DNA of 64,000 nucleotides from assembly GCA_036172245.1 (NCBI GenBank), contig JAYWIR010000014.1:1-64000 (forward strand), in the 5' to 3' direction. The notes beneath the pieces were generated by a model that saw only the letters and a list, made by a program, of their open reading frames with translations, did no database searches and was not told the DNA's origin. Positions 28,420 to 63,003 of the stretch are shown here, piece by piece; positions within the stretch are counted from its first letter, which is position 1; each line of letters begins with the position of its first letter. A program made the translations under genes and the position numbers. Source of the stretch: Raillietiella orientalis (lineage: Eukaryota).

Positions 28420-30216
28420 TACCAGAGGTGTTTGGGGCTGGCATCCGATTCAATGATTTTTACTTCTCTTACGTTTTTTAATTTTTCAGTGTGAGTTTCT
28501 TTTCTATCAGGCGCGATGGGCAGAATCTGTTTGAAAGATGGGGTAGACACCTTTTCCGTATGCTTTACGGCTTCGCCCTTTCGACGTGTTATGTTCGGAC
28601 TCCTCTTTACAAGATGACCCACGACATTACAGTGGCCACAGAGTTAGTTTTCCCAAATACCAGTTGTCCATCTTCTCCACATTGATTTCGCACTTATGGA
28701 GTAGCACTCTCTGTTCTCACGCGGTTATGTTTGCGGCAGCAAACCTTTTAAACAAGCCGTTAAAGTACTTCTGGTAATGGTTTGGTTATGCCCACAAAAC
28801 ATGCACCATTCCGTTTTGTTCCAATTGCTCTCTCACAGCATGTATGTTCATGCGTAGCGTCAATTCTGTAAAGTGGCAACGATATCGCCGTCGACGGACA
28901 TGAGGAATACCTTGCGGCCATCGATTTTGTCAAGGCTCCTATGAAGTCGACGAGGCAAACCTTTGTCTTTGCAAGTCAGCTCCACGATCTGCACTCCGTT
29001 GCGGTTTTAGAATCCCAGGAATTCCTTCTTCTTCACGTCTAGATTGTGCAACTCCTCTCCGAAGGGTAGTGCAGTTTGGTCATCAGAATCCCGTCCTTCC
29101 TTGTACAGCAGGCCCCGATTGTAACCGAACACCTTTTAAGTGTTTTTTGTTCTGCCGCGGCTTCCGCCACAAGGTGGCAACCGTAACTTTTCAGACCCTT
29201 GCGAGTGCGAGGGTCTGAAGGGGGAACTGGCCCGTGATCCATTGGCGTGGTGGTTGGTGGCATTATCTTTCCCTGACCTTTCTTAGTGGTGGAAACAAGT
29301 TGTGCTGCCTTTCCCATACCACTGACACCGCAAATAAAGTTGAACCCTTCGTGCTGGAGCACTGAGGATACATCGCCGAGTCGGCGAGCGGCCCTGTCGG
29401 GGGTCCTTCGGCAAATTGTGCCGACATAATATGCGGAATGTCACTCTCGAGAAGGGCGCACGGATCCCTTTCACTCGCTGTGATGACAGCGTACAGCGCC
29501 GGAAAGCTCCGGCATTCCCCCTGGAATTCCTGGTTAACCATCCAGTCGTCGACCATCTTCCCAATTTTTCCTTTCGGCAGGAACCGGTTTCAGTTCGATT
29601 CTGGGGTGAACTGAGAGAGCGGACAGAGCTTTTCTGACAGCGAATATGGGTGCCCATTCATAAGCACGGGGTTTACGCTCCAGGTTTGCACTGGACACCA
29701 TTGAGCATGATCTGCTATCTGTTAGAGCGCGGATTGAGGCAGCTCTTGGCCAAGGGCAGGTGGACGTCTTCAGGAATTGAGCAGCATCCGAATGCCTCGT
29801 TAGCAATTCCTCTCGAGCGAGTACTTCCAAAGACAGAACTCCCTCTTGGTAGGGTCGGAAGTTGTGGGCTGGTAGGTCGAGTCGGACGCCATGTGAGAGC
29901 CGGCCTGCCGTTCTAGCTCGATTGTTCTCGCCAAAATGGGAGCTGCACTTTGTCTTCGAAATACGGCTACGCCATGTGAAGGTGTAGCCGTATTTCACCT
30001 CTAACGTTTCACCTTTGAGACGTTTTACATTGCGTTGCATCTTCGTTTGCCTCGTGCACAAGAACAAGGTCGGAACTTGCGGTTTCTGCAGGCTCTGTGT
30101 CGTTTTACGCCGTTTTCGCGCGTCTGTACGGAACTTGCAGGAGAATGTTCATTCTGTCGTCCTTCAGGGAATTGTATAGTCTTCTCTTCTTTCCATGTGG
30201 CCAGGAACTCCTCCAT
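28420..30216 (-). mobile_element. Decayed gag/ORF1-like region of a retroelement (non-LTR ORF1 type, with zinc-knuckle remnants)
   Basis: GC-rich island. ORFs 30067-29534 and 29362-29039 share one frame. Downstream reads FGEELHNLDVKKKEFLGF*NRNGVQIVELT..LP..KIDGRKVFL, resembling the ORF1 RRM-like 'NGxRxV' region. It is followed by CX2CX4HX4C remnants WCMFCGHN.. and LCGHCNVVGHLVKRSP (~28640-28599; last Cys changed to Ser). Multiple stops and frameshifts. Confidence 0.65.
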
Positions 30217-33412: not shown

Positions 33413-34556
33413 ACTGAACCCACAAATGTATCTCCTGTATTAATCTGGGGAAGGAGCCGGAAACTTTGCACGACAGTACGTTGTTGTTGTCTGTCATGTG
33501 GGCATGGTATTCTATCTTACTGACGTGCTGTATTTTATCTCCGCGGTCCTCTGACACCGACTCGTTTGAGATCAATACTCGTTTACCTGCAATGCAATTT
33601 TTTTTTATTATTTTGCCTTTTGTGACTGCTGCACTGGAAGATTACCTATGTTCCAGAGAAAAAAGTGGGTCTGATTGCCTCCATTCAGTCGACATGTGCA
33701 AACGAGTTTCGCGCCTTCATCGACTTTTACTATTTTGCGTCCATCGGCCTGCAACTCGATTCTGTGATTTTCAACCGTCAGCTCCAAGTTGCCTTCTTCT
33801 TCTGAAATCATACATCAGTATTTCTTGTAGACAACGATGTGAAGGGACCATTTGTTTCGCATTTCTGAATACTGCAGCTTTCTTTCACGAATCCATGTTT
33901 TGGATCCGAAACGTAACACCATGGACCTTTGGATAACTCCTTTGGATTGCGACAATAATTTTTGGACTTTAGGAGGCATCCGTCAATCAACATCCAAGAA
34001 GCCTTGTTTATCGACATGTAACTCAAAAGGGGAGAGCTTTCCCAATGTTCACATCTGTTTCCTTTTAAAGTTACATTTTGATGACCGCGGTACATTAATC
34101 CCTTTTCATCTGTTAAACACTGTCTTTCTAAAAACCATGAATTTAGTTTTTTCTTTTAACGGCTGAACAGTCCTTACCTGGTGCAATTCTTCCACAGATG
34201 GCTCGAAGTCCATCATTGCATGATCTGACATGTCCGTCAAATTTCAATTTGAAGGGATCTGAATTAAACGATAAGGTGATGGACAAACAGTCATTTGGAC
34301 GAGGCGTCAGTGTCATGTTCTTTCCTAAGAGTGCTGCTTTGGCTGCACACGTTATTGGAGTTTCATCCGTCCATTGCCAATTCCCACTAACAGACCTTCC
34401 GCCTATCCAAAAGGAACGAGCAAATATCCATCCTTCTTTACTTAAAGTCTTTGATAGCAATTCCAAATATGGCTGAAATGAGTGGTGAAATGGTTGAGAG
34501 CAAAATAGGTCGCATAAGTAGAATAGGTCACTACTACCATAACGAGTCGCCAACAA
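33413..34556 (-). CDS. Exons encoding a C-type lectin domain, a kringle domain and an Ig-like domain (5' end not resolved)
   Basis: CTL: SFWIGGRSVSGNWQWTDETP..NDCL..SCNDGLRAIC. A 50-nt intron (34177-34128) joins in frame to a kringle: ERQCLTDEKGLMYRGHQNVTLKGNRCEHW..NYCRNPKELSKGPWCY..ESCSIQKC. Then Ig: CRLNGG..FLWNI, a 59-nt intron (33645-33587), and SKIEY..DNNNVLSCKV. Confidence 0.85.
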
Positions 34557-37500
34557 ATTTATTTTTGCTCAAAACAGCAACCTATAGTGTTCGTTTTTTA
34601 AAAAAATTTCATTGTTTTGGAGGACCAAAATACAAATCATCAAATTTCTGTACATAATCTGAAGAGACTGGACCGAAATGAAAGAAAGAGAGAAGTTGGT
34701 CGTGTCGAGAGTAAAAAATGGTATAGAGTAAGAAAATTCTTGACCACCCTTGTATATTCAGAAGTTGAGCAGGTGACCTTTCTGCATATTTTTCTTAAAA
34801 TTTGCAAGGAAATGCAGAGATCTGTGATCTGTGATCACGGATCAGTAAGAGAAACCAGATTTCATTAAAAAAAGGAGCTCCAGGGATTTCAAAAACATCT
34901 GGACGTGGACCCACTCGGGTGTAAGAAAAAAAAAAGGGAATTATTATTATATTCCGAATTGGTACACGAAACCGATGTACCAAAAATTTTCATACTCTAC
35001 TCCGAGTTGTAATTCAAGTATTCATGACTTCGGGATGTTATTTGATCCAGAGATTCAGTGTGGAAGGCATAAACTAATACTTCGCCATTAGTATTTGAGC
35101 ATCGAGTTCGAGATCAGAAACTGGTCTTGTTGATATCCGTAATCCATTGTTCTGCTTTGGAAACTTCTATTGAATTCAAATTGGATCCATTCATTTCTTG
35201 GTCTCCGTTTGTTCGCTACACATTGTGTTCAAAGAAAAGTCTAAATGAGTGCAGACACGATTTCTGTATGTGCATACTACATGTGATGTTTGTAAAAAAC
35301 GAGATGTTTTTTTCATTTCCTTTGGTCAAAAGAGACTAATGGCAGTGGCCAAGAGTACTTTGAGTGAGCTTTCTGTTTTAATATCTGAGATGCAGCGCTC
35401 CTTGACGAGAATCACTCAAGATCTCAACAAACAACAAACAACCAGATACGGTGAGAAAGGTTGCACCCAAAACAAAAAGTTTGCAGAGAATTATTCGGAA
35501 AAGATGCTACACATATTGGTAATGGCACGTCATTTGTTTCATGCTGCGTTTTCAGTGCTTTACCTTGCAAAAACCGTGCAAAAACATTATACTCTCATTA
35601 AATATGTTTTGACTCAAAGGTCCATAAGATTTTACATTTCTAACTTTCAAGGTTGAGGTTGAGTTAAATTTTTATTTTCAAAATGAATGTTTTAAATAAA
35701 TCTTGATAGCTCAAATCATAACTGGGTATAAGGGCAGAGAGAGAGAGAAATATGTTGAGTGTTACAAAGCCAGGCAAAAAGAAAAACAAGAGGTAATCTC
35801 ATTTGCTTGCCAAGTTCTCGAGGCTCACTCTCTGAAAAAATTATATTTTTTGTAATCCATCAAAAATCCATTCACATTGGATAAACATTTGACATCATCT
35901 GCAATTCTCTTCCCAATGCTCAGCCGCTTCCATGCCTTTCTAAACTCTTCTGAAATTCTCGAACGAGGATTCCACAATGAATTTTGTGTTTTCGAAGCAA
36001 TTTATTTCCTCTTCTAGAGGTCTTTTTTCGGTTTCCTCATTCGATTAGGAATCTTTGTTTCTTTCGTTACGGTCAGCCGTTTTACTGATTGCTCGAAAGG
36101 TGGGTTACTCTGCATTTGGAATCAATTTTCTTCTCCGACGGCCAGACTTTTGCATGAGTTTGTTTCCTACTCTTCTCAAAATTCAATGAAAAGTGATTCA
36201 AGAATTTGTGATCACATGGAAGACGGCTGTCTCTCTATTGAATGTACTGTTTATCTATAGAAATAGAATTATCATAGGATCATTAGTAAAAAGCGAACAT
36301 CTACTCTTCAGAATAGAGGAACAAGCAGTTTCTTTACAGCATGAAACACAATGATAAGTTTCCATAAAATCAATCAGTAAGCTTAGAAGTAGAGGATAAG
36401 GATGTTTCTGGAAAGAAAGGAGAAGAAAAACATGAATGCAAGGAAAGAAAGCAAAGTGCACTCCAAATCTCTATTTGCGTGTGTTGAGAAAGCCACCTAA
36501 TTTAAATGTGTGTGTATCTTGGAGCTGAGTTTGAAAATAAAATTAGAATTTCGGTGGATATGTCATTCATATTTATATTCCCACTTGTGCTTGTAACTTG
36601 ATTACCGATCGCAATACACATGAGTATGCGCTCCGTTATTGATGGTTTTACACATATGCAGTCAATCAGCAAATAGATGGATTAATTTTTTGCTCACCTC
36701 AGATAAGAGCTGCAGGAGTTCCATGTCATTTAGATTGCATTGCTTGCTAGCTTCGTCGAAACTGTAGAATTTGTTCAGAATCAACAATCTGAACTCCGGA
36801 TTGATCGGATAAAAGAAAGTTGCATCTGAAAGCACCAAGTTTTTGTAAAGTTAATGACCAAGAAACCAGTTTGCTGTGAAAATCATATTGGTTAACGGCC
36901 GGGAAAACAAAAACATTGATTTTTGGCATTATGAAAACACCTTGATCTCTCTGATTTTGTTTTTACAAAGAACATGACATCACTAGCATCTTTGAAAGTC
37001 AAGGAACAGACCATTAGTTTGCACAACGAAGATCAGAGTTTTTAAAAGAAAAATGTATACATTTAATGACCAGCATCATCGAAAACTTTATAATCTTTGT
37101 ACAAGTGCCTTGTTTCTGATGCAGTGAGCAGATCGAGGTCTTTAATTCCAAGAGATGGATTTTAAATTGCCTTGAAATCTCAAGTTCCTTATTTTATAAT
37201 TATCTATTAATAATAAATTACTACATTGTGTGATGAAATAGATTCTTTCATAAATAACTTGCTACATTGCCAATCTGAAGCCTAATTATAACACAACTGT
37301 TGCAAACATCCAATGTATTAAGAATTAAGTTCCATATGTTCATGATTTTCATACTTAATCTTAGTTTAAGTCTTTTTGGCAGGGTGTGGAAGTGAATTAA
37401 GGTATAGTCAATTGTTTGGCTTTTGAAATTTCAAAAGTTTCTCCTGAAACAAAGAAACTATTATGGAATGATCAAATAGACAATAACCGTTATCTTAAAT

Positions 37501-38020: not shown

Positions 38021-40419
38021 CTGTAAGCTAATCAATTAAAATAAGGGATGAGATTGAACAGCAGGAAAAGATTGGAAAAAAAGAAAAAGTAATCTAATAG
38101 AGTTTTAATTCATGATTTTCCTTGATAATGATTTCTGTAAATATAAAAAAACGATTTAAAAAAGACCACACTTTCTGAAGCTGAGCTCTTGAGCTCATGT
38201 GAACAGCACTGTGTTATCTATATGAATCAAAACATCTGTTTGCCTGCTTATAATTTATTGATTTACTAATGCTTCAACAATACTGAATATTTTAAGGCAT
38301 AGAGATGTTTTCTAAATGAGTGTCCCAAATGATACACATTTATGTGAACTCCTGCATATGCCTATGGATTGCAAGCGAATAAAGTGTACTTTTTGCGAGT
38401 GTGCCTGAAGACACTCTTAAAACACTTATAACTAAAAACTGTTGTTAACTGTATTGTTTAATTAAACTGATTTAACTATATATTTCATATTTAAACTATA
38501 TATTTCATAGGAAGAGTACAAGATTGCAAGAAACAGAATGAATTCTGATTTTTCTTTTTTTTGACGTCTGCAAAAGTGCGCTTCTGTTTTCTTACCTGCA
38601 TTGACTGAAACTTTTTTGAGCCCTTCAATCACAAAAAGCAATATAAAGCAAACTGTACATTTATTTACTGATTTCACTGAAAAAGTCATTTTAAATCTTT
38701 ATACTAGTTATGAAAACTAACATGCATCAGCTATTTTCCATAGCAAGAATTTCTAACAATTGAGACCCAAAGCATATTGTTAATTTCCCACCAGTATTTA
38801 AACTATGGCATCAGCATAACAAAAATGAATCGGATAACCTTTAACTAATTATAATAAGCGATTTGAAAAACTTTCGGGTATCCAATTCGGTGATTTAAAA
38901 ACAGCGATTATCATATTGACTTGAGAAAAAATCGAGTAATTCTTCAAATCGAAGGAGTTTCCATTAATCCCATGTCGAAAGTGCGAAACCAAAGATCACA
39001 TAAATAATAATAATGTTTTCACAGATCAGCAATGAATTTGCTTTAAAGAGCGCGAATCCTCTAAAGACGATATAAACAGAAATTCAAGATCAGGTTATTT
39101 CTTGGCACAACACGAATTTCCGTGCACATGGTATGGTATCATATCGATGAAATGATGATATTGATAATCTCATATAAGGAATGGAAAAAAACAAATATGT
39201 GCCTTTTGAGCAGTGAAAGGCATTCCGAAACAAAAAAATACTTCCATAAGAATCGTAACATATAATCAAGGTAGAAGCTACACAGAGTTTCACTGCAGAA
39301 TTCTTTGACAATTATCTCTAAACTGTTTACCAATGATAGGAAAGAAGAAATCCAGCTAGCTTACCGGATTTATACTAGGTATAAATGCTCTTTTATTCTA
39401 TGTACAAACTCATTGGCACGATAAAGTGAACACCCAAGATGAGAGAATTATTATTTTATTTCAACGGAGAGTGTCATCTTTTGTATACATACATTTTTTG
39501 TGTTAGCAAAGTGTATCCTTTCAGTGTATCTGTTCCATGAATCAATAATAGATCGACTGGGAAAATTTCCTTTGCATTTTGATCCTATCTGTTTGGAATC
39601 TTTGGATGGATAATGCTACCTTCTGATGGATTTTTTCCGTGATATTTAATCAGTATTTTGCCATTCACATTGAATTCTTACTTACTCTATTTTTTTTTTT
39701 TTTTCATTGTTCAAACATTGCAGCAGCAAAGGATGGAACTGATCTTTCGATTCGAAAGTAGTTTGGATTATCATAAATTTCATAAAAATTCATGACAAAG
39801 TAAAAAAGTTAAATAAAAATCCCTGAGATTTGGTATGAGAGACAGCAAAAAAAGAAATACGGAAGTGAAACATACGTTTTTATGCAAAACGGGCGTCAAT
39901 GATGAGTGATGACTAAACTGGCCTTCACTCCACTTCAAATAATTAGACGTATTTTCAGTTCATGGACATTACATGGATTCAAAACAACTTCAATGAAGGA
40001 AAGCCTTAAAAAGAATCGCTTAGAAAGTACAGTGGGATTTTTTCCCAAAATTTCGGAAATGTACTGAATTGAACTGTCAATTCAAATAAATTGACTTCAC
40101 GGCAGACTAGGTGCTGGAAGAGAATAATGACATTATCCAGATTATTTTGCTGTCTACCAGTCTTCCACTGTTTAGTCTGAGGAATTTATTCTCTGAACAA
40201 TCCCAGATCACGTAAATCCAGTAAACCACAGCACGACTGGTTTACAGTTTTCGGATGCTCGTTGGTCTGACACCCCGTTGTGCTGGGGCGTTATTTTTAA
40301 AATAAACATACAAGTTAATGGCAGGACATTTGGTCCTGCGACGTTAGATATATATACAAAAAGAAATCTGTTGAGAACCGTTGAGCAAGCCGGCGAGGTC
40401 CTCCTCGGCATCAGAGGAA

Positions 40420-41570
40420 AAGGCAAACAAACAAAAAGAAAAATAAAACAAAAAAATATATATATAAAATTGAGAGGATTTGGGAAGGGAACAACGGGGC
40501 GCTGGAGGGCGTTTCCTGCATCCTTGTAAGCATGCCGGCAAGTTTCTGTTTTACGATCCCCAGATGGGACCATCTTGCCTCTATAATCATGAAGAGGACA
40601 GCAAAATAGATGGCATCCCTATCATTTTGGCTTCCTCTTGCCTTGCTCCACGATCGCGCGTAGGCAGCACAATACTGCTAGGGCTGAGGTCAGCATGAAG
40701 GCGTCGCGCTGGAAGAGGCGATTCAGAATATCTCTGGGGTTGCCCTCGGAGTTCCTCAGAGACTCCGCAAAACATTCTCATAAAGGGTGGAGGGCAACAC
40801 AATCCATGAGCATGTGCGAGAGGGACTCTCGCGCTGCAGCTACCGTAGTTTGGACTTGCACTCCCCGGATCCAATGGTGTCGGCGAGCGTTATACGGGAG
40901 GTCCCGATGCAGCTGCAGGGTCTCCGACTCCTACCACTTCAAGGGGAGGATAGGACTGTTCCAAGACGCTGAGGGCCACTGTACCTCCTCCAGAGGAATT
41001 TGTAGTAGCTTTCCACAGCGTAGCAATCCTTTTGGAGGGACACTCGGGGTGACGGCATTGGTCAGCTCCCGAATTTTCCACGTACTTAAATATTTTTTCC
41101 TGTTATTAATTATGAGCGTCACCTCCCACTTGGCCATAAGGCCGCTGTCTACTAGGAGGCCCAGTTCACTACCCTCACGCGGAGCGCAAAGGTCCTTTTA
41201 ACCGGACTTTCGACCTCTCTGCGCCCGACATGGCTTTTCTGGGGAGGTCCTGGGTCCTCTTTTGGATGGCCACAAGAGTGAGGCAAACAAAAAGCAGGGG
41301 GCGCAGGAGAGGAGCCTCAAACGCGTTCCACACCGCGGTCCGTTCCAGCAATTAAAACTTGCCATTTGGGAACAGGAAGAGCGCCATTTCCACTTTCTGG
41401 AGACGGCCGAATCAGACCTCTGCTACGCAGAAGTCTCCCAACGGAACGCCAAGGTAACTGGTGTACCCCCCCGTTGGGATCCCCAAGCGGATCCACTCCG
41501 ACCGTCCGGCCTACATCGAACCAGTCGGCGCTGCCGGATGTTTGTTGGTCGGAAATCACGTAATCATGGT
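40420..41570 (-). mobile_element. Decayed 3' part of an L1/Tx1-clade non-LTR retrotransposon ORF2 with T-rich 3' UTR
   Basis: The minus strand reads SYLGVPLGDF..*FGRLQKVEMAL..*LLERTAVWNAFEAPLL (post-RT YLGVPL region). It then reads ILPLKW*E..LHRDLPYNARRHHW..ESLSHMLMDC (zf-RVT-like CCHC region), followed by a T-rich tract (40418-40470). GC-rich relative to the flanks, with internal stops. Confidence 0.85.
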
Positions 41571-42715
41571 CTAAGTGGACCTACCACGTGTCTCTGAGAA
41601 TACATTTGAAGAAATATTATTTTATCTCTAATGTTATCTAAATAGATGACACAATGCTTCTTGTATTGTGCTGCACCTTCCGTAGTGTCTTGCACAAGTG
41701 CTCATTCATGATTCCTCAAGTTCTCATGTGTGCAATGATTACTAATGAAGATTAGGATGCATTAAACCTAAAACCTAACACACATGCATGCGTGTGGAAT
41801 ATCAATAAATGCAAGAAAACGATGAAAAACACTTACAGAACGAATTCTGTCTTGAAAGCAATTCATTATTTTGCTTATACTTGGAATGATTTCAGAAGAT
41901 AGAAAATTATTTTATCGCAAGATGTAAATATCATAATCAAAAAAATATCGCTCTAGAAAAATTATTAAAAATAAAATTTAAAGGATGTTTCATTTCTTAA
42001 AATTTCTAAATATTATCATAGTGCATAAAAAATGAATTAGTGAACATAAATTTTCTGGATTATTTATTCAAAAAAGCAAACCGATAGTTTAAAAAAAAAA
42101 AAAACTAAGAAAGCAATCGGTAAATTGAAAAGAAATTTTTGATAATTTCTGGTATCATTGGATTTGCCTTCTGAGGGAACTTTGCTGAACAAATTCGATT
42201 TTACCATGGATGTTACAATATTTTTTCGTAAGCAAATATAGAACATGAATCGCTAAATGAGGTGGTAATCTCGCAACAGGAAGTTTTTGCGGATAGGGAA
42301 TCCTTACCTGGAGTTGATCGTGTTGTACGTACCGCATTTGTAGTTCAAGAACTTGAAATTGTTTTTCATACTACTTATCACGTTTTTCCTGAATTTGATA
42401 TCGTAATATTTCTCATGCAAAGAAGAATTCTGTTTCATTAATAAAAGTTTTTTGAAATGGAAGGTTTGCACTTGCTTCAATCATAATGCAAGAAAGTAAA
42501 GTCGTAGCGAAAATCCATTACCATAAGCTGAAAAGCGTACAGAGCAAATGGGTAATCCGCTTTGAAATTGATTTCCTCTGTGCTGAATTTGTTCATGATA
42601 AGAATACTAAAAAATTAGTTATCGAAAAAAATAAAAGTATAATGGAAACTACAGTTGCACTGTGTTTATCTCCTATATCTTAAATAAGTTTTATTTATAA
42701 AAAGTTGAAAGCGTT

Positions 42716-43688
42716 ATGAAAGCTGTTTATTGCCAGAGCCCATATTGCCAGAGACGACAAATTTTGAAGTTACTTGCATCAAGAGTTGCAAATTCTAGTT
42801 CATGTTCTTCTGCACAAATGCTAGCATTGACACGAGCAAGAACTGGCTTCATAACTGAAACTTCACAATGCTTAGAACTGATTAGAAAATTAGTTCAAAA
42901 GAAAATTAACCAAGAGATCGACAGCATCATTAAGAAGTATCTAGAGGTTAGTAAAGCTTTCATAAATTAATTGCAAATGTAGATTTGCAGACGTATTTCA
43001 AAATGGGAATTGAAAATATATGCCAAAACAATGGCAGGAATGCAGTTTCAGATGAACACATTCATGCTGTATGTCGTCAAATTTTGGAGGATGCCAAAAA
43101 ACTATACCCTATTAAAGAAGTATCACTGGTATCCAATGTATATGAAATGAACAATGACCAGATAAAAAAACATCCAAATGATTGGATTTCTTTGTCAAAG
43201 ATGAAAGAACAAAGTCAAGAGGAACCATCACGACCAAAGCATGGCATTCTAGAACAAACAAGTCAAATTTGCAGCCCTAATGAGGCTGCAAGTTGGCAAT
43301 CATGTTCAAAGGGGTACATAAATAAAATATATGGATCTTTCTTTGTTACTAATCATAAGTAAGTGAAAAGTTGGACTCAGTTCAGATAGACAAGGCACTG
43401 TAATGATGTTTCAGAGCATGTCAGTTTCTGCCAATTGTTCAAGATGCTCCCATATTTCGATATCAGTGTGATTTTGAAGATCAAGAATGGTTAATACAGC
43501 AACAGTTAATGATGCCAACTGAATCCTCAGTGCAACTGTTGTTAGTAGATGAAGTACTTCACCTAGAAGGAGCTGAGGAAGCTTGCCAAAGTTTACAAGG
43601 ATTTCTAGTACCTCAATTTCTGGAAGATAAAATGAGGAAATCACTTCAACTCTACCAGAACGTGGACACAAATCCTGTTCCCTGGTAA
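42716..43688 (+). CDS. DNTTIP1: Deoxynucleotidyltransferase terminal-interacting protein 1 (MiDAC subunit), 3 exons: 42716-42946, 42991-43358, 43415-43688
   Basis: Dimerisation domain CLELIRKLVQKKINQEIDSIIKKYLE|TYFKMGIENI..SDEHIHAVCRQILEDAKKLY. C-terminal domain IFRYQCDFEDQEWLIQQQLMMPT..GFLVPQFLEDKMRK. GT-AG introns of 44 and 56 nt keep the frame. The start codon is uncertain. Confidence 0.85.
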
Positions 43689-43729: not shown

Positions 43730-45616
43730 TTATATTATGCCAATGCGATTAGCAACATCCAATGCATCATAATCAGGGCCAAGTCTCACATAGGCCTTTT
43801 TCTGACCATCTGGACGAATCAGTGTACTCACTTTGGCCACATCAATGCTATATAATTTTTTCACTGCTGCCTTTATATGATGCTTGTTAGCCTTCAAATT
43901 AACAATGAACACTAGGGTATTGTTATCTTCAATTTTTTTCATGGCTGACTCTGAAGTTAATGGAAACTTAATAATGTTAAAGGCATCCATGTGGCAACGG
44001 TCTGGCTTGGATTTTCGGGGATATTTGGGGTTTCTTGGTAGATGCAATGTATGTGGTCGGCGGAAGTGCACACTAGTGCGCACCTTGCGTACACGGGTAC
44101 CATAGATTCCTTTTGTTATCTGCATAAAAAGTGTTAATTTATTGCAGTTCACCTAATATTTACCTTAGCTTTAGCTCGCAAAGCTTTTTTCAGTGCACCA
44201 CTAGGAACCAAAGCTTTTTTGTTTGCATTCTGAGGAGCTTTTCCAGTCACCTTAGAACTCTTTGAAACAGATGGAGTTTTCTTTTGCTGTGATGCCTTGC
44301 TAGCACTAACAGTTTTTTTTGCTGTCTGTGCATATTTGGCAGGCGGAACTTGTGTCTTTGAAGTAACTGACTTTTTATCACCTTTACTCTTCTTTTTCAG
44401 CACTTCAGATTTACTTGATTTGGGCACCTTTTGAGCACTAGGACCAGGTGCAGGATTCACAGATTTATCTGCTCCTTTCCGTTTTTTAGGATTTCTATCG
44501 ACTTTTGTTGTAGATGCTGATGCAGATGTAGGTGCAGAAGCAGGAGCTGCAGGTGGGGCAGCTTTCTTTTCACCTGGAAAACAACATTCACATTCCTAAT
44601 GACCCTGAGTTCAACACATTACTAATTCACTATGATATCACACATATTGTATTCACCTCTACCTAGGATGACAACATTGAATCAAACCATTTTTCGTATT
44701 CAACCTGATTTGACACTCCAAAACAGATAGATGTATGTATTACTCGACATAAAACTAACACAGCTAATTGGAACATTCCAGAAGCTCTTTCTACACACTA
44801 TTTTAAAACTTGAATGTCAAATATCCCACCTAATTATATGTAAATACGTATCTTCTCAGAAACATAAGACAAATTTCCGTTTTGCGTTTTTCCTATCATG
44901 CATACGTTCGCAATACGAACACTTGCAGAAAGCAAACTAGTAAGAAGGATAAACCAACCATACAAGAACATAGACCACACCTTAAAACGTGCTTACATGT
45001 GTAATTAATATTTAGTGACACAAATAAGAAAAATTCCGTACGGTAGATACAAACAAGTCATAACATCAGTAAAGGCAATGCTACTATGATCTTACATGAA
45101 ATAGATATAAAACTTTGTTGCTGTTTTAAAAATTTATAAATACACGTAACAAAGCAGTAGCAGTTATTTATTGATACATATTAATGGATAAATTCGTTAT
45201 GCCGGAATGTCCACTTATTAATATTCTGCAGGACTAAAACAGAATTATTAAATTCAAGTCATAAATTTAAATGTTAAAAAAGCACGTATTAACAAACACT
45301 AAAACCCTCACAATTAAGACACTCCGTAATCACATAGCTGTACACCTCTAGCTTAACACTTTTTTTTAATTGTAAACTTCACGTTTCCTCAAGCAGATCG
45401 CAGCTCAAATAGAAACACTTGGTATAAGTCAAGATGATTACAAGACATAACTTTACTGTGTATATGCATCCCAATTAATTTCATTATGTGCAAACCCACA
45501 AAGCTGCGGTAAAGTCCTGCCTTAGCATTTAGTTTTACAATGCAAATAAGAGAAAAAAAGTATTATGATAAACACTTACCTTTACCAGCACTTTTGGCTT
45601 TCTGCTTGGGCCCCAT
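43730..45616 (-). CDS. RPL23A: 60S ribosomal protein L23a (uL23) with Lys/Ala/Pro-rich N-terminal extension, 278 aa; exons 45616-45580, 44573-44164, 44119-43730
   Basis: [79 protein letters not shown] introns of 1006 and 44 nt. The spliced CDS is 837 nt, in frame. Confidence 0.97.
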
Positions 45617-49232: not shown

Positions 49233-50687
49233 TGTGTTTGTTTTATACGATTGCTTGAGCACAATGGCTACCAAATGCATTTTTTTTCTTATTATTTTTG
49301 GATTTTATCAAACTGTGTTGCACTTCTGCAATCGGGAAGAGATGCATGCAAACTAGAATTGTTTCTTCCTTCTTTTCTTCCATTCGCTGTAATTTAGCCG
49401 ATGTCTTTGAACTGTTCCCAACTTTCTTAGTAGGCAGACTGGGTATTCTCCTCTATCAAATGTTAGCATAAGGCGATTTATCTAGGAATGACACGATTTA
49501 TCTCGTATTTCCCTATTTCTGGAAACTGCTAGACGCATTTCATCCTCTTGGGATTAAGTTGGGAATAAGAACAATGAAGAAAAACAAATGAAATTAGGCA
49601 AAAAAGATTGCAGCAGCTATGTAAAATCGCGAGAAAGAAGACGAAAGTCTCATCGAATGAAAAACCAATTCTTAAAAAGGAAATAGGAAAAAGTGGGAAA
49701 ATATCCGCGGTTGAGACTTCTACTTTTGCTCAGATGACGTTTGGAAACTGTTTCAGAAATGGAAATCTTTCCAGCCTAGTGGACATTTTAAAAAAATCTG
49801 CCAATTTTAAAACAACTCACGGATCGGAAACAGTTTCCCAGACCTCAACAACGTTATATGAGTTGAGAGCAATTTCCCACTTAATGAATTTGGGTACCAG
49901 GGCTACAGAAGGAAGATTTTTCCTTTCCCGTAGGAAAACACACAAAAAACTAAGCTGAAACCTGAAGATAAAAATTATATGTTCTGATAGTTGAGTGTCA
50001 GGAAAATGAGTTACGGAGTAAAAATAGGGTCGCTCATAGACATCAACTTCCCTTGCAAATTGTCCAGGAACAAATCGATCTTTCTCCTCCTCCCCTATCT
50101 CTTCAAAAGAAAGAAGTAGAGAAAATGCACATTTGGTCATGTAATTCATCATATACCCTGAAATCCCAAGATGTTGAAGATTACAGTTCCTAGTAGGGTT
50201 CTACGAGTAAAGAGCCTGATGTGAGGCAGGAATGTCTTCTTTCTTCTGCAGAGTTGGCTTATGTTATTGTGAGGAGAGATTTTGAGCAACAGACAAATGA
50301 ATAGGAGGGAGGAGCAGGGTGATTTACATAAACGGTAAGAAAAATGTGTATTTGTACACAGGATGTTGGTGAAAGTAAGCCTAGATAATTTACTTTCTGA
50401 ACACTGCATTTCAAGGGTAGCATGATGGCTCGTAGTACTGTTGAAAACAGTACTACGAGCACTACGGTAACTGTCTCTGACTCTATGCACCCTTGGGTGC
50501 AAATGTAGATCATGTTCCAGGACGCCCTCAGAAACAGGTATACCCCGACGAAATGCACCACGTGATTTGCTTTCCACAAGCGTCTCGGCTGCGTGATTTC
50601 AGGGCCAGTTTGTGGACGTTTGTGGAGGCTTTAGTCGTACAATCTTAAAATCCCGTGCAGAGTTTCTGGATTGAATCCAACGAATTA

Positions 50688-50966
50688 GCATTGGTGAAGA
50701 GTTGCATCCCATAAAAAAATTCTCTTTACCCACAAATATAGTACTTGTGAAACCGAAAAAAAGTTTTTGAGTACACCAGAGGTATTTTCCAAATACGAAG
50801 GAAATTTCTCCAAGCCAATTGAATGGGAGATGACACTGAAAAGGATTTATTAAAGGTTCTTAAAGAGACGAGAAATGATCTTCAAGAAATAGCAATAAGT
50901 CTTATTCCTGAAATTAAGGATGTGATATCAGCACTTGAATCACAGAAAGGCTCTATACTGTCTTGC
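50688..50966 (+). pseudogene. ispE: Frameshifted internal fragment of bacterial 4-diphosphocytidyl-2-C-methyl-D-erythritol kinase (Wolbachia-like)
   Basis: IGEELHPIKKFSLPTNIVLVKPKK / FLSTPEVFSKYEGNFSKPIEW / DDTEKDLLKVLKETRNDLQEIAISLIPEIKDVISALESQKGSILS. This carries the IspE motifs GIGE, LVKP..LSTPEVF and NDL, with two frameshifts. It is cut just before the MSGSG motif. Confidence 0.85.
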
Positions 50967-51305
50967 CTCACCGGACATAAAAAGGCACTCAAGAGGGGAA
51001 AATTGTGCAAAATTAGCTGCAATTCTCAGCAAAAGGGTAGATTTTCCAATTCCAGGCTCGACACCAATTAAAATGAACCTTAAACAATACCTCCACCAAA
51101 AACTCTATCCCTGTTAAAAAGCGGCCTGGAATAATAATTTCATCACCCGATAACGCCTTTATTGAAATCGGTGTAGATATACTTCTTGTCTCTGTTTTAC
51201 TACTATTTCTTCAACAACCGTATCCCAATTGTCACATGCAATATACCTTCCTACCCATCTGCTGGTGCTGTGACCGCAGGATTGACATACATATACAGTT
51301 TTCAT
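50967..51305 (-). pseudogene. radA: 5' fragment of bacterial DNA repair protein RadA/Sms, disabled
   Basis: ATG at 51305: MKTVYVCQSCGHSTSRWVGRYIACDNWDTVVEE (C4 zinc finger, one Cys lost). After a frameshift: RFLTGI..DRVFGGGIV*GS.ILIGVEPGIGKSTLLLRIAA..CLFMSGE (Walker A). It has indels and a stop, and is truncated at SGE. Confidence 0.92.
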
Positions 51306-54300
51306 AAAAGCTAAAGCTATTTTTTGCAATTGTAATGAAGATTAGCTAAGCAAGCGAGGTAAATTTAATTGCTAAGCCTCACAAACCTTGTGATGTTAAG
51401 ATAATTTTCACAGTTATGCTATTCAAATGACACCATCTCTTAAATTGCAGTGCACAAGGTGTCCTACTTCACGGATATCGAAAATTTTACCTGCCTTCTT
51501 GTCAGAGCATGATGCAGGAAAGTAGCGACAGATTGTTCTTGCACCAATACTTGCAATATTGATCAGAAAACATTGAAAACTGCATACGAACTAGCCTTTA
51601 CTTTTCATCGCTGCATTTCCCTTGGATATGCTCTCTCCAAAATTCTCAACAGTGCACTTTGATTCCAACAAATACATCTACCTCCAGGTCACCAACGCGG
51701 ATCAGAAACCTGTGCAACCTGATCATGGTATGAACTCCAATCATTGTGGGAGGCCACAGAATCTCCTGAATACCAGTGCTTACACGCACAGCTTGATTCT
51801 GTAGCTCTCCAGGAATCAATCAGCATGTCAGCTGCTGATTTCCTTACTTTCTAGTTTCCAATGCCCTGAAAATTGTTATTGGTAGACCACGATTGGAGAA
51901 AAAGAACACCATAAATGTAGACCCATGTTCATTTAGGAACTAAGCAACAGAAAGAAGGCAGTGATTTGAAATGCTATCGCATGATCTTTCCGCTTCAGCT
52001 CCTCATGAAACGCCCATCATTTTCACTAAGCGTGTTGAATGTAACGAAATGTGTCGGCTATTGTCTGTTTTAACGTGGAAGAAAATGTGCATTTCTTGAA
52101 ACAATACCACAATGCACTTCCCATATTATGGAGTGAGTTGACGTGAATGGCTCTTGCTTCGTATTATTTCTATCGGAACGGTTTACTAATTTACCCGAAG
52201 ATGCTATCTTCCGCTTCTGAACTTGAGCAAAGACCACACAAGCAGCGACTGTATAGTAAAGCGGTGCTCTAGTCCAGAATCCTGTCGATGCGAGTGATTT
52301 TCTCAGAAAAAGAATTTCGTCATAAATTATCAGGGGAGGATCTTTTTAGGCCTTTCAAAAGTTCTCAACCTCATGAGTTTTAATGACCTAGCTGCTATCT
52401 TGGGCGGAACGTAAATTTCACAGATCCCCATGAGGCCGAATCGAAAGAACGAAACGATAAAAATTCCGTTATAAATTGCAACTGGTTTGCAACAACACTC
52501 CACATGTAACAGGGAAATTTGCGCTCCTGGTCATTCTTTGTATCCACAGTGTCAAAAATGCCTAAAATTAAGGGAATTCAGAAATTCTTATGCGGTTTTT
52601 TGATGCACGAATCCTAAATCTACACCTGAGTACTTGCTTGAATTGATTCTACCAAAGATCATCAGTGTTCCCGAATTGGGTTATGATTTATGCTCAGAAA
52701 GGCCAGTTCTTAAAGTAACTCGATAGTACTCAATTTTTTTTTCGAATAAAAACATTGCAGGAAATTTTTTTAGAAAATAAAAAAGCTTCCTTCAAGTGGA
52801 AATCAAACTTGTTTATATTAGGAAATAATTTACTTTAATTTTGATGTATTTGATGTGTATTTGATGAGTTTACTAAACTAGATACTTGATGTGTTTATTA
52901 AAATGAAACAAATGCATTTGGTTACTAGGGAATTGTAATATAGAAGCGAACTATAATAACGGAGTACTGTATCTACAAATTTTGGATTCTATGTGAATAT
53001 TGAAATCATGAGAATTTTTAACAATTCAGGAAACAAGTTTATGGGCACTTGGTTTCAATAGTTTTCGGCTGCCTTTTGAGTATTTACGATACCTGTTCAA
53101 ATTCTGCTTTACTATTCGGCTTACTTAAAACTTTTCAAGAGCAACCTGTCTGCTCGACAAAACCATCCAAGTACGAGACTCACTGGCAAAAAGTATCAAA
53201 CAGCTCTGGGGAGAAAAACTTGAAAAACTTAATCATTATCGGCTCTTCCTTATCGGAATTCTGAACTTTTGCTTTCCGTCGGAGTTTTCGAAAAAATGCA
53301 GTTGCTTCGAGTAGAATGGTTCCTATCTTCACACATAGCTCTTCACTCCAGAACTGTTTGCTATTTATCCCTTAAGACTGGCTCGAGGGATTTCAAGCTT
53401 ACAAAATCAACCTTTTGTTGAGGCAACTGCTCGTATCAAAAACACGTTTGTTTCAAACTCATAAACTTTGATTTTATCAAAACGATTCGCGCTGTTACAG
53501 TTCTTCAAATATGCGTTGTTTTATCCCAATGAAAACAAAATTGTCTTTTTTTTTTAAGGTATTCTTTTAAAAACATACGTAATATCTTGTTTTAGAATCA
53601 TTTAGAAATGCTATCAGTCTCGCATGTCATTATTATTCCACAGCTGACCAATATCATTAGGTATCTCAAGTAAACAGATGAGAACTCATTGTGGAAAACA
53701 TGTGATAAGCTTCTGGAGTTTTCCGAATAAAATGGGAATTTATATGCTTGATACTCCAGCGACGGCTTCTCTTTTATTTTTAACTGGATAACCAGCTTGT
53801 TGTGGCAATATGACTCCACCTCTGATCCTTTCTCCCATCCGTTCGTGCCCACTTGGCATTCTTCTTACTTTCTCGTTATCTCCAGAAAAAAAATAAATGA
53901 AACTCATTACAACTTTCCGCCCTTGCTATACAACATGCTACCGCAGTGGGATCCAAATCGGAACTGAAAGATCAGCAAGCTTGTTGCTCCAGCAAACTGA
54001 GCAACACGTGGAGGGGGAGAAAGCAGACACAACTGATCTGTTTGTTAACTTTTTTAATGCGATAAACAAGACGGTGGTGATTTCTAAGAATCCATTGGCG
54101 AGTCATCTGCTACTTATGCAATAATGTTATGGGTGAACAGATGATGGCTTTCCATTTCCTTTCTGATATTTTGAAAGGCTACTAGAAGTTCCACTGACAG
54201 GTGAAAGGGAACTAGACGTTACAGCAGCTAAACTTTTAACTATTAGAAAGTGGCGAATGATCACATAGCTGTCTTTGGGGAATCTTTTGTTCCTTCCTCG

Positions 54301-59054: not shown

Positions 59055-59852
59055 ATGGGGTGGAAACTTTGGCAAGCTGGAAAGGTTTTGATAATGATTC
59101 TGGTAACAACAAACATCACTGACAGCAATCGTCAGAGGAAACCTTGGATTACTTTTGTTCCTGGACCAGGGTCTCGCTTAGAAGCCTTGTACAACAACCA
59201 GCTTATCGCAGTAATCACTAGGACAGGAAACTTGTTGGAAAACTGCACCTTAGTAGAAGCCAGGTGAGATCCTAGGATCGATTGCTACCTCATCTCTGTT
59301 TCCAGAACAGAGAAGGATCTCGCCTCATATCTGAATGAACTAAACTCAACGGTGCCACTCCAGGAAATTAGCTTCCGTGGCATGTTCGAAATCATGAATG
59401 CTTGTCACAACTTGAGCACACGTTATTTCGAACCTGATCCCAGACATGTAACCAATGAAGAATTTGGTATGAAACGAGTCCTCTTAAAGTATGGGATTGT
59501 ACCTGGAACCAAATGGTGCGGTAATGGAGATATAGCGAGCAACTATAACGACCTCGGTGCCTTGATGAATATAGATGCTTGCTGCCGTGAGCATGATTTG
59601 TGTCCCATAAAAACCAAGGGCTTATCTTTTGATCCACGTTATGCATTATATAATCCTTCTTTATTCACGAGATCTCACTGTGCATGCGACTTACGTTTAC
59701 ATAATTGTCTCGAAAGGATTGGCAGTCCCTTAGCCAGAGTAATAAGAGAATTATATTTTTACATAATGCGCCCTCCCTGTATGACTCCGTGTATCCTACA
59801 GAGTTGTGTAACACCCTTTAAGTTTTTGGATGTAATTAAAATTCCTGTATAA
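59055..59852 (+). CDS. Group III secreted phospholipase A2 (bee/scorpion-venom-like family), 251 aa; exons 59055-59263, 59306-59852
   Basis: IVPGTKWCGNGD (Ca2+ loop), DACCREHDLCP (catalytic His-Asp) and RSHCACDLRLHNCL. Hydrophobic N-terminus and a pro-region with a KR pair. A 42-nt GTGAG..TTTCCAG intron keeps the frame. Confidence 0.95.
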
Positions 59853-61698: not shown

Positions 61699-63003
61699 TC
61701 AGAGCTCAGTGGGTGCTTCAAGCATCTGCATCAGGAATGTGTCAATGGGGTTGTCACCAATTAGCTTAAAAAAAAACAAATGTTCTAAACATTTAAGGCC
61801 AATGGATCGTAATGCTGGAAGCCTCAACAAAAGTTTTGCAAAGCGTCCATGCTGGTCAGGATAGGCTTGGCGGCAGTGTTCTTCTAAAGCAACAAATACT
61901 TTATCACGTAAAGATTCAACCAGTTGCACTGATTTAAGTCCTTTGATTTCTAAAACAAACCAGTTATGGGCACAGAGTGGCATAGGAACTCACCTGGATT
62001 AAAGAGAACAATGGCACGAAGGCATCCTAATTCTGTACGATCCATGTTAATTTCTCTCATCTTCACAACAAGCTCAGAGAGCACTCTATCAAAAATAGTA
62101 CCCACACCAGCTGCATGAGCAGACTCCCGATGCACTTGTAAACCATTGGCCAGAATGATGGCATCCTTGACTTCAACAGAACGGTGTGAAAAGGAAGCAA
62201 TCAAGAGCTCATTCCAGCCAGCACGTAACAAAGCAACTTGATCTTCCAGGCATAAATCTAAGAAATGAGGAATATGCTTGGCCCATTCCACAAGTTGCAT
62301 CAGCTGCCTATCAGCAGCTTGGCAGATGCTTGCCACAGCATCTGGACTAGCAATATCATCCAGTAACTCATCTTTCACTTCTGATCTTAATTCAGCCTCA
62401 AGAATTTTCTCCAAGGACATGTCAGTTTGTGAGGAACTGGATTCCACCTCTGCATCAGTACGCTCTTTACGATGTCTCTCCTCCTGCATTGCAGATTAGC
62501 AAGAGACACCCAATTGAGCAAGCACTGACAACCTGCACTGCCTCCCGTTTCATTCCCATCATTAGACACTTTTGGTAACGGCAATACTGGCACCGGTTGC
62601 GCTGCCTCTTATCAATGACACACTGGCGATCTTCACGGCATGCATAGGTCAAGTCTTTTCTGACTGTGCGTTTGAAAAAGCCTTTGCAGCCTTCACAACT
62701 GTATACACCATAATGTTTGCCACTGGCACGGTCTCCACAAATAGCACATAAATGTTTTGAACCAGACAGTGGATGATTAGGAGGATAACTCTGTTGCTGT
62801 GGACTTCGACTACTACTTCCAGCTGTTCCAGGAGGTAGATAACCCAGGGGAAATCCTCCTTGGGAAACACTACCAGATGGGTTTGAAAAATACTTTACTC
62901 ATCCCCACCTTGGAGAATTGGGTCCACTTCCTGCATAAGAAGAAGACAAGAGCGCTGGATCTGGTTTTAGTTCCAAAGGACTATGAGGACCCATTGAGGT
63001 CAT
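61699..63003 (-). CDS. RXR: Retinoid X receptor / ultraspiracle (NR2B), 390 aa; exons 63003-62909, 62869-62533, 62483-61994, 61949-61699
   Basis: A/B region [12 protein letters not shown] and [48 protein letters not shown]-box [71 protein letters not shown]-2 FLMQMLE. Introns of 39, 49 and 44 nt. The spliced CDS is 1,173 nt, in frame. Confidence 0.98.

What the first reader, a model, noticed from the sequence alone, without database searches (positions are those of the whole stretch)
50688..51434. Bacterial (Wolbachia-like) DNA in the host genome: fused ispE and radA pseudogene fragments
Seen: an ispE fragment (+) and a radA 5' fragment (-) meet tail-to-tail at ~50966. Both have frameshifts or stops, lack introns, and sit among intron-containing animal genes. 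Known: animals lack the MEP-pathway kinase IspE and bacterial RadA/Sms, and nuclear Wolbachia transfers are well documented in arthropods and filariae. Inference: the peptides closely recall the Wolbachia proteins as I remember them. The insertion is decayed, so it records a past or present infection. The radA upstream region to ~51434 may also be symbiont-derived.
Basis: partly seen in the sequence, partly recalled or inferred. Interest (0 to 1): 0.7.

Follow-up and report, generated by a model that had tools for sequence, protein, structure and literature searches.

The report
Decayed Wolbachia DNA scrap in animal genome
A 745-base scrap of Wolbachia DNA, made of two broken and unrelated gene pieces joined end to end, sits inside an animal chromosome region as a dead relic of an old symbiont infection, which is a well-known kind of event.

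Summary
Window 50688/50690-50966 (+) is an internal piece of ispE (codons 155-247 of 288). Window 50966-51305 (-) is the first 119 codons of radA, and 51306-51433 is its 128-nt upstream spacer.

- **Donor:** both pieces match Wolbachia genomes at E 1e-84 to 1e-159. 59 of 60 species genomes of that genus match.
- **Extent:** no other part of the 64 kb matches. The surrounding DNA carries animal genes.
- **Decay:** two 1-nt deletions in ispE. In radA there are 1-, 13- and 4-nt deletions, a CAA>TAA stop and a zinc-finger Cys>Tyr.
- **Origin of the join:** in the 39 genomes where both genes lie on one contig they are at least about 85 kb apart, so the insert is a composite.
- **Closest relatives:** the radA piece is sister (100/97 support, 95% identity) to the radA pseudogene of one MAG and shares its 1-nt deletion. 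The ispE piece is nearest a group-A-like strain (91%) but is unresolved in the tree.
- **Junction test:** the one run available did not reach any junction.

Verdict: a non-functional nuclear Wolbachia insert, a new member of a known kind, of low to moderate interest.

The parts
50688..50966 (+). ispE fragment: codons 155-247 of a 288-codon Wolbachia ispE. It lacks the N-terminal 154 codons and the last 41.
   Evidence: blastn matches at 50690-50966 in 5 of 5 genomes. 90.7% over 279 columns to wCantharis G008 and 87.1% to G001. tblastn IspE residues 154/155-250. Codon numbers.
50756..50762 (+). A-run of 7 where all 13 aligned Wolbachia have 8: a 1-nt deletion, the first ispE frameshift
   Evidence: alignment; frame change between ORFs 50675-50770 and 50698-50853
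50828..50829 (+). 1-nt deletion between these bases, the second ispE frameshift
   Evidence: alignment; frame change to ORF 50823-51071
50966..50966 (.). Internal junction. ispE homology ends and radA homology begins here, with at most one shared base.
   Evidence: no homology continues past it on either strand
50966..51305 (-). radA 5' fragment: start codon at 51305-51303 and codons 1-119 of about 449. The zinc ribbon and Walker A region are present. The rest of the ATPase domain and the C-terminal domain are absent.
   Evidence: TIGR00416 and PF18073 hits. tblastn RadA residues 1-119 at 51305-50967. 89.7% over 409 columns to L013/G001 and 95% over 340 ungapped columns.
51195..51198 (-). A-run with a 1-nt deletion (radA nt 108). 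It is shared with the radA pseudogene of MAG G001 and is absent in the 12 other aligned Wolbachia.
   Evidence: alignment; G001 frames; G001 gap at nt 108
51109..51110 (-). 13-nt deletion between these bases, private to the window
   Evidence: alignment
51080..51082 (-). TAA where 10 of the 12 donors aligned at this codon have CAA (Gln) and two have AAA: a nonsense change
   Evidence: alignment
51076..51077 (-). 4-nt deletion between these bases, private to the window
   Evidence: alignment
51243..51245 (-). Codon 21 reads TAT where all donors have TGC or TGT: the third zinc-ribbon cysteine is replaced by Tyr
   Evidence: alignment; ORF translation 'WVGRYIAC' against 'WVGRCIAC' in the consensus
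51306..51433 (-). Wolbachia intergenic spacer upstream of radA, of the wStur and group-A-like type rather than the type seen in G001 and its clade
   Evidence: blastn reaches 51433 (L009) and 51428 (L001-L003). Alignment. No ORF covers the homologous stretch in L009, although short ORFs overlap its edges in L009 and L001.
50823..51071 (+). Mechanical 82-codon ORF running from the ispE piece across the junction into antisense radA. No evidence that it is used.

Best explanation
This is a dead nuclear insert of Wolbachia DNA (a lateral transfer relic) about 745 bp long in an animal chromosome.

Two pieces of bacterial DNA were ligated tail to tail with at most one base of overlap and captured in the host germ line. 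One is an internal piece of ispE. The other is the radA start with its upstream spacer. The two lie at least tens of kb apart in every Wolbachia genome examined where both are on one contig. The most likely route is end-joining repair of a chromosome break. The insert has decayed neutrally since and does nothing now. It records that the host lineage once carried, or still carries, Wolbachia.

The radA piece comes from a lineage whose only sampled relative is the 5' part of the radA pseudogene of one MAG (G001, 'Rickettsiales bacterium Spi319_bin9'). Its first frameshift was probably already present in the bacterium before the transfer.

Shown: the identity of the pieces, the donor genus, the edges, the lesions, the composite nature and the animal flanks.

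Inferred: the end-joining mechanism, germ-line fixation, lack of function, a single event, and the timing of the shared frameshift.
For: 1. Identity and donor. NCBIfam and Pfam hits. Protein hits at 72-95% to Wolbachia RadA and IspE. DNA matches at E 1e-84 to 1e-159 in 5 of 5 genomes and in 59 of 60 genomes of the genus.

2. It is not a working bacterial copy. It has five indels, one nonsense codon and Cys21>Tyr. Both genes are truncated. Of 10 states in the radA piece found in none of 33 ingroup Wolbachia, 9 lie at codon positions 1 or 2.

3. It is composite. ispE and radA lie on different contigs or far apart in every genome. The smallest spacing I read from that table, over the 39 genomes with both on one contig, is about 85 kb (G027). 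The spacing is 134 kb in G006 and 379 kb in G007.

4. Host context. No other Wolbachia-like DNA occurs in four searches covering the whole 64 kb against 5 genomes. Only six 28-39-nt rows with E 3e-4 to 7e-3 turned up. Animal domains lie on both sides. The flanks are unique within the window.

5. Link to G001. The radA tree places WINDOW with G001 at 100/97 support. The 1-nt deletion is shared.

6. One public run holds two 151-nt contigs identical to 51131-51281 and 51255-51405. They therefore carry the shared deletion and the window's private changes at 51244 and 51263. That run may be the assembly's own sample.
Against: - No read or contig was shown to span either host junction or the internal junction, and no depth comparison was possible.
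- No whole genome is held for the window, so other inserts and copy number are unknown.
- The two pieces have different nearest relatives: radA is nearest G001 and ispE is nearest G008. The radA piece with G008 is rejected (p-AU 1.5e-5). The ispE piece with G001 is borderline (p-AU 0.048, with the group named after seeing the tree). Two donors or two events therefore remain possible.
- The shared deletion lies in a homopolymer run, where parallel loss is plausible.
- The four states shared only by the window and G001 are all at third codon positions. That gives no sign of long decay before the split.
Confidence: 0.85

Rival explanations
1. Assembly artefact or contamination: reads from a living Wolbachia in the sequenced animal were wrongly joined into a host contig.
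For: Junction-spanning reads were not seen. Some public animal records carry Wolbachia proteins flagged as contamination, for example the ispE hit P0011 named UNVERIFIED_CONTAM.
Against: - The ispE piece has two frameshifts and is cut at both ends. The radA piece has four further lesions beyond the one shared with G001.
- The two pieces are at least about 85 kb apart in donor genomes, so two bacterial misjoins plus two host misjoins within 745 bp would be needed.
- The contig continues for 50 kb on one side and 12 kb on the other, with animal genes on both sides.
Confidence: 0.05
2. Two separate donors or events: the ispE and radA pieces entered from different Wolbachia strains. This could be by co-infection, by successive insertions at one site, or as the remains of two larger inserts brought together by deletion.
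For: The nearest relatives differ: radA is 90% to G001 and 78% to G008, while ispE is 91% to G008 and 87% to G001. AU tests. Private states number 10 of 340 in radA against 2 of 277 in ispE.
Against: - ispE as sister to the whole clade that holds G001's ispE is not rejected (p-AU 0.40).
- The window's radA spacer is of the wStur and group-A-like type, as its ispE piece roughly is. One unsampled or recombinant donor therefore fits both pieces.
- G001's own radA is a mosaic.
- The difference in private states is not significant (Fisher p 0.075).
Confidence: 0.25
3. The fusion and decay happened in the bacterium. The insert would then be a faithful copy of an already rearranged, degraded stretch of a Wolbachia genome.
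For: radA is frameshifted at the same base in the bacterial MAG G001, whose neighbouring genes are intact. radA reading frames are also short in the wTis and wMoz loci.
Against: - No genome of the 60 has the junction or has ispE near radA.
- The junction 24-mer was not found in the metagenome collection.
- ispE is intact in all 17 named genomes examined. From general knowledge, it belongs to the MEP pathway that Wolbachia keep.
Confidence: 0.05
4. Co-opted sequence: the insert supplies an exon, a small protein (the 82-codon ORF 50823-51071) or a regulatory element to the host.
For: An ATG-initiated 82-codon ORF spans the junction.
Against: The ORF is half antisense radA. There is no Rfam match in 49500-52500. 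No Pfam family matches the flanking ORFs. The lesions are of the neutral kind.
Confidence: 0.03

Closest known systems
Nuclear Wolbachia transfers in arthropods and filarial nematodes, such as the inserts described in Glossina morsitans (PMC3998919), Drosophila ananassae (PMC4558871) and filarial nematodes (PMC12693587). For all three papers I saw only the search listing and the start of the abstract. A Callosobruchus chinensis RadA-like protein appears among the hits (P0005).
   Same: Wolbachia-derived DNA embedded in host chromosomal sequence, without introns, broken by frameshifts and stops. It can be used as a record of infection.
   Different: It is very small (about 745 bp) and built from two pieces that are distant in donor genomes. 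Its radA part has no close relative among 60 species-level genomes apart from a mosaic pseudogene in one MAG. The host is not identified here; its RXR-like exon is only about 70% identical to any named protein.
Organelle-to-nucleus insertions (numts and nupts). This comparison is recalled from general knowledge and comes from no call.
   Same: Short, often composite fragments of endosymbiont DNA joined with little or no microhomology at a repaired chromosome break, then decaying neutrally.
   Different: The donor is a facultative bacterial symbiont and not an organelle.
radA pseudogene of MAG 'Rickettsiales bacterium isolate Spi319_bin9' (G001:C48, locus L013/L068)
   Same: 95% identical over 340 coding columns, sister in the tree at 100/97 support, with the same 1-nt deletion at radA nt 108.
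   Different: - G001's copy is full length and sits among intact Wolbachia genes.
- It lacks the window's 13-nt and 4-nt deletions, stop codon and Cys>Tyr change.
- It has a different upstream spacer.
- It has its own 1-nt insertion at nt 1035.

Membership tests
Nuclear Wolbachia insert (symbiont-to-host lateral transfer relic) | The sequence nests within Wolbachia rather than another bacterium | tested here: met
   59 of 60 genomes of the genus match. In trees rooted on an Anaplasmataceae MAG, the window falls inside the genus for both pieces.
Nuclear Wolbachia insert (symbiont-to-host lateral transfer relic) | Contiguous with host chromosomal DNA on both sides | tested here: met
   This holds in the assembly as given. 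Animal Pfam domains lie at 33.8-44.2 kb and 59.3-62.9 kb. No bacterial match occurs elsewhere in the 64 kb.
Nuclear Wolbachia insert (symbiont-to-host lateral transfer relic) | Junctions supported by reads or amplicons | tested here: inconclusive
   The only run found holds two 151-nt contigs inside 51131-51405, and none crosses 50688, 50966 or 51433.
Nuclear Wolbachia insert (symbiont-to-host lateral transfer relic) | Read depth equal to single-copy host DNA | not testable with these tools
   The run is kept as contigs, and depth from contigs is no copy number.
Nuclear Wolbachia insert (symbiont-to-host lateral transfer relic) | Loss of coding integrity compared with the donor | tested here: met
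   Five indels, one nonsense codon and truncation of both genes.
IspE (4-diphosphocytidyl-2-C-methyl-D-erythritol kinase, GHMP kinase) as a working gene | Full-length protein reaching the family score, with the N-terminal GHMP kinase domain | tested here: not met
   The best score is 31.2 bits against a cut-off of 204. GHMP_kinases_C scores 15 bits against 21. Only residues 155-247 of 288 are present, spread over three frames.
RadA/Sms as a working gene | Zinc ribbon, RecA-like ATPase and C-terminal Lon-like domain in one frame | tested here: not met
   The zinc ribbon is detected (PF18073, 34.4 bits) but its third Cys is Tyr. The Walker A stretch GIGKST is present in another frame. Residues beyond 119 are absent. 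TIGR00416 scores 37.7 and 28.9 bits against a cut-off of 403.

The most novel reading that the evidence does not exclude
The insert preserves a Wolbachia lineage that is otherwise unsampled. Its radA segment is about equally far (roughly 78-84% DNA identity) from every other clade among 60 species-level genomes. The only other trace of that lineage is a window-like 5' segment of roughly 800 nt (about radA nt 60-800), carrying the same frameshift, inside the radA of MAG G001. That MAG segment would then be one of two things. It could be the product of recombination with the lost lineage, with radA already dead in the donor before transfer. Or it could be a piece of a related host's nuclear insert assembled by mistake into a bacterial bin, which would mean that public symbiont MAGs can carry host-nuclear relics.
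Probability: 0.3. Interest if true: 0.45.

Novelty: new member of a known kind. Interest (0 to 1): 0.3.

Why it matters
It marks the host lineage as a past or present Wolbachia carrier and gives a datable molecular fossil, provided that the host's other inserts or the orthologous site in sister species can be examined.

It is also a practical warning in two directions. Screens for symbiont infection by PCR or read mapping of radA or ispE could score this relic as an infection. Symbiont bins from host metagenomes, such as G001 with its mosaic frameshifted radA, may contain or recombine with such copies.

Beyond that, it is an ordinary example of a well-documented process.

Tried and rejected
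- **Whole genome of the window:** not held, so no count of further inserts.
- **Earlier findings of this scan:** none by place or by sequence.
- **Sequencing runs:** one DNA run with a small share of the words. No RNA holder was listed. When laid, only two 151-nt contigs lie in the radA part, plus two unrelated partial hits. The junctions are not covered.
- **Metagenome collection:** the junction 24-mer and a 32-mer over the shared frameshift each gave 0 matches.
- **Host identification through the RXR-like exon:** the best named hits are only 60-76% identical and spread over fishes, scorpions, spiders, a millipede, molluscs and insects, so the host is not resolved.
- **Homology beyond the edges:** 9 of 10 local-alignment tests did not exceed shuffles. 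One borderline hit (right flank against the G006 far-upstream region, reached by 1 of 300 shuffles) was not reproduced in G004 or G008.
- **Rfam in 49500-52500:** no match at E up to 0.1.
- **Pfam on five ORFs flanking the insert:** no family.
- **Supergroup for the ispE piece:** unresolved in the tree. Neither the clade with G008 (p 0.093) nor the clade with the group holding G001 (p 0.40) is rejected.
- **Sign of decay before the split from G001:** only four shared private states, all at third positions, which is uninformative.
- **Literature on a Wolbachia ispE-radA pair:** one unrelated paper.
- **Rows left out:** five divergent genomes (AnaplGLO, wTex, wCori, wPenNig, wTyrophagus) were left out of the private-state counts. 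Four of them were left out of the displayed ispE alignment, and four (all but wCori) out of the displayed radA alignment. All five were kept in the trees.
Full report
**1. What is there**

Reading 50300-51900 and its six frames shows three + frame pieces that together spell the middle of IspE:
- 50675-50770: '...IGEELHPIKKFSLPTNIVLVKPKK'
- 50698-50853: 'FLSTPEVFSKYEGNFSKPIEW'
- 50823-51071: 'DDTEKDLLKVLKETRNDLQEIAISLIPEIKDVISALESQKGSIL'

Three - frame pieces spell the start of RadA:
- 51159-51341: 'MKTVYVCQSCGHSTSRWVGRYIACDNWDTVVEEIVVK'
- 51013-51210: 'TETRSISTPISIKALSGDEIIIPGRFLTGIE'
- 50940-51104: 'ILIGVEPGIGKSTLLLRIAANFAQFSPLECLFMSGE'

NCBIfam names them IspE (PRK14608, E 1.3e-7) and RadA (TIGR00416, E 1e-9 and 4.7e-7). 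All scores lie far below the full-length cut-offs, as expected for fragments. Pfam finds the RadA zinc ribbon above its threshold.

**2. Donor**

Protein searches with the fragments returned Wolbachia proteins. There were 8 hits for RadA at 78-95% identity and 13 for IspE at 68-84%. Several carry names such as 'Wolbachia endosymbiont of ...' and 'MAG: Rickettsiales bacterium'. A few are filed under animals: Trichonephila, of which one is flagged UNVERIFIED_CONTAM, and Callosobruchus chinensis.

A scan of one genome per prokaryote species with a RadA alignment gave 19 loci:
- 13 are titled Wolbachia.
- 3 are titled 'Rickettsiales bacterium' MAGs.
- 1 is titled an 'Anaplasmataceae bacterium' MAG.
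- 2 are unrelated (Syntrophaceae and Planctomycetota).

blastn of the window against these loci hit the first 17 and not the last 2. The best is L013 (MAG Spi319_bin9, handle G001) at 89.7% over 409 columns.

Whole-genome searches of 5 of these genomes found exactly two places in each. An ispE match covers window 50690-50966 or 50690-50962 in all five. A radA match starts at 50966 or 50968 in four of them and at 51132 in the fifth (G003), where the donor contig ends. In 60 genomes of the genus of G001, 59 match. The best radA match stays G001 (90%) and the best ispE match is G008, the Wolbachia of Cantharis cryptica (91%).

**3. Extent and edges**

Searching the whole window in four pieces against five Wolbachia genomes gave no other real match. 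Only six rows of 28-39 nt appeared, at E 3e-4 to 7e-3.

- The left edge is at 50688-50690.
- The internal junction is at 50966, with at most one shared base.
- The right edge is at 51433 (wStur) or 51428 (three group-A-like loci).

The last 128 nt (51306-51433) correspond to the spacer upstream of radA. No ORF covers the homologous stretch in L009, although short ORFs overlap its edges in L009 and L001. Ten local-alignment tests for homology continuing past the edges or past the junction were made. Nine did not exceed shuffles, and the tenth was not reproduced in two other donors.

**4. Lesions**

Against 13 aligned Wolbachia, the ispE piece has a 1-nt deletion in an A-run (50756-50762) and another between 50828 and 50829. 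It covers only codons 155-247 of 288.

The radA piece has the following lesions:
- a 1-nt deletion in an A-run (51195-51198)
- a 13-nt deletion (between 51110 and 51109)
- a 4-nt deletion (between 51077 and 51076)
- TAA where 10 of the 12 donors aligned at this codon have CAA and two have AAA (51082-51080)
- TAT where donors have TGC or TGT at codon 21, a zinc-ribbon cysteine

It ends after codon 119 of about 449.

States found in no ingroup Wolbachia number 10 of 340 in radA, and 9 of those lie at codon positions 1 or 2. They number 2 of 277 in ispE. The difference is not significant (Fisher p 0.075). Neither piece can encode a working enzyme.

**5. Composite origin**

In every genome where both genes were found, they lie on different contigs or far apart. 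They are 134 kb apart on opposite strands in G006 and 379 kb apart on the same strand in G007. The smallest separation I read from the table, over the 39 genomes with both on one contig, is about 85 kb (G027). No genome has the junction, and the junction 24-mer is absent from the metagenome collection.

The join was therefore made during or after the transfer, or by a deletion inside a much larger insert. The window's order and orientation would fit such a deletion in a G007-like arrangement, but Wolbachia gene order varies between the genomes seen here. An abutment with at most one base of overlap is what end-joining repair gives. That last statement is inference from general knowledge.

**6. 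Where the pieces sit in the genus**

In a maximum-likelihood tree of the radA piece (39 rows), the window is sister to G001 with 100/97 support and 95% identity. Placing it with G008 or with the group-A-like set is rejected (p-AU 1.5e-5 and 0.008).

In the ispE tree (38 rows) the window is unresolved inside the large crown group, nearest G008. Three constrained placements were tested. With G008 gives p 0.093, with G001 alone gives p 0.048 (the group was named after seeing the tree), and with the clade holding G001 gives p 0.40.

Supergroup letters were not given by the tools. The exception is that RadA of loci L001-L003 is 98-99% identical to a protein named 'group A'. My labels B (wCon, wStri) and F (wMoz, wPaur) are recalled.

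**7. The shared frameshift and the mosaic MAG gene**

G001's radA lacks the same single base as the window, while 12 other Wolbachia have it. G001's radA is itself split over three frame pieces by that deletion at nt 108 and by a 1-nt insertion at nt 1035. Its neighbours on the contig are intact and 89-99% identical in protein to those of G002 and G005.

Identity along the gene is uneven. From about nt 50 to 650, G001 is 80-92% identical to all clades alike. Beyond about nt 840 it is 89-99% identical to G041, G026, G005 and G002, but 77-90% to the others. Read through, it has no stop codons. So G001 carries a window-like 5' segment inside an otherwise ordinary gene neighbourhood.

The simplest reading is recombination with the lineage that also gave the window's insert, with the frameshift already present in that lineage. 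Alternatives are parallel loss in a homopolymer run, or a chimeric assembly of the MAG with a host nuclear copy. The window's spacer upstream of radA is of the wStur and group-A-like type, unlike G001's. The donor was therefore not simply a G001-like strain.

**8. Host context**

Pfam finds the following animal domains:
- a nuclear-receptor DNA-binding domain (62470-62898, -)
- a nuclear-receptor ligand-binding domain (61953-62495, -)
- phospholipase A2 (59268-59849, +)
- ribosomal protein L23a (43733-44152, -)
- Kringle (33811-34155, -)
- C-type lectin (34146-34568, -; E 0.001, 20.2 bits, just below the Pfam cut-off of 22.6)
- DNTTIP1 (42955-43359, +)

The receptor exon is RXR-like. The flanks of the insert are unique within the window and have no Pfam family.

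**9. Reads**

One public DNA run held a small share of the words. When laid, it gives two 151-nt contigs with no differences at 51131-51281 and 51255-51405. They cover the shared deletion and two of the window's private substitutions (51244 and 51263). The decayed allele, and not a bacterial one, is therefore in that run. The run may be the assembly's own sample, and it reaches no junction.

**10. Comparison and verdict**

This is a nuclear Wolbachia insert of the kind described in several arthropods and filarial nematodes (PMC3998919, PMC4558871, PMC12693587). For those three papers I saw only the listing and the start of the abstract. It differs only in detail. It is tiny and composite, and its radA part comes from a lineage seen otherwise only as a mosaic segment in one MAG.

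I rate it a new member of a known kind, interest 0.3. My confidence is 0.85 that it is a real, non-functional nuclear relic. I put roughly 0.6 on a single composite event and roughly 0.55 on the first radA frameshift predating the transfer.

Noticed in passing
window 1-26622: One long tandem satellite array. The unit is about 1.1 kb and copies are 76-93% alike, with stronger matches at offsets of about 3.3 and 6.6 kb, suggesting a higher-order repeat (self-blast).
   Followed up: partly
L068 (G001:C48) 130-1530: The radA of MAG 'Rickettsiales bacterium Spi319_bin9' is a pseudogene with two 1-nt frameshifts and a mosaic identity profile. Its 5' part is equidistant from all clades and its 3' part is typical of its own clade. 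The neighbouring genes are intact. This is either recombination or a chimeric assembly.
   Followed up: partly
L015 (wTis) 2983-3495; L016 (wMoz) 2977-3198: The radA reading frames are only 170 and 73 codons long in these two loci. wMoz has an extra base near the position aligned to window 50981. radA may be broken repeatedly in this clade, or these may be assembly errors.
   Followed up: no
L030 (G008, Wolbachia of Cantharis cryptica) 1501-1779: Its ispE fragment sits apart from the other group-A-like ispE sequences in the tree and is the window's nearest relative at 91%. This hints at recombination in ispE.
   Followed up: no
window 61953-62898 (-), 59268-59849 (+), 43733-44595 (-), 33811-34568 (-), 42955-43359 (+): Host gene pieces: an RXR/USP-like nuclear receptor, a phospholipase A2 (PF05826), ribosomal protein L23a with a long Ala/Lys/Ser-rich N-terminal ORF next to it, Kringle plus C-type lectin, and DNTTIP1.
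   Followed up: partly
window 50428-50460: A 33-nt inverted repeat (91% self-complementary) lies 230 nt left of the insert. No link to the insertion was shown.
   Followed up: no
window 28900-30150 and 40200-41600: These stretches have overlapping long ORFs on both strands (up to 204 codons) and no Pfam family for the three ORFs tested. Their nature is unknown.
   Followed up: no
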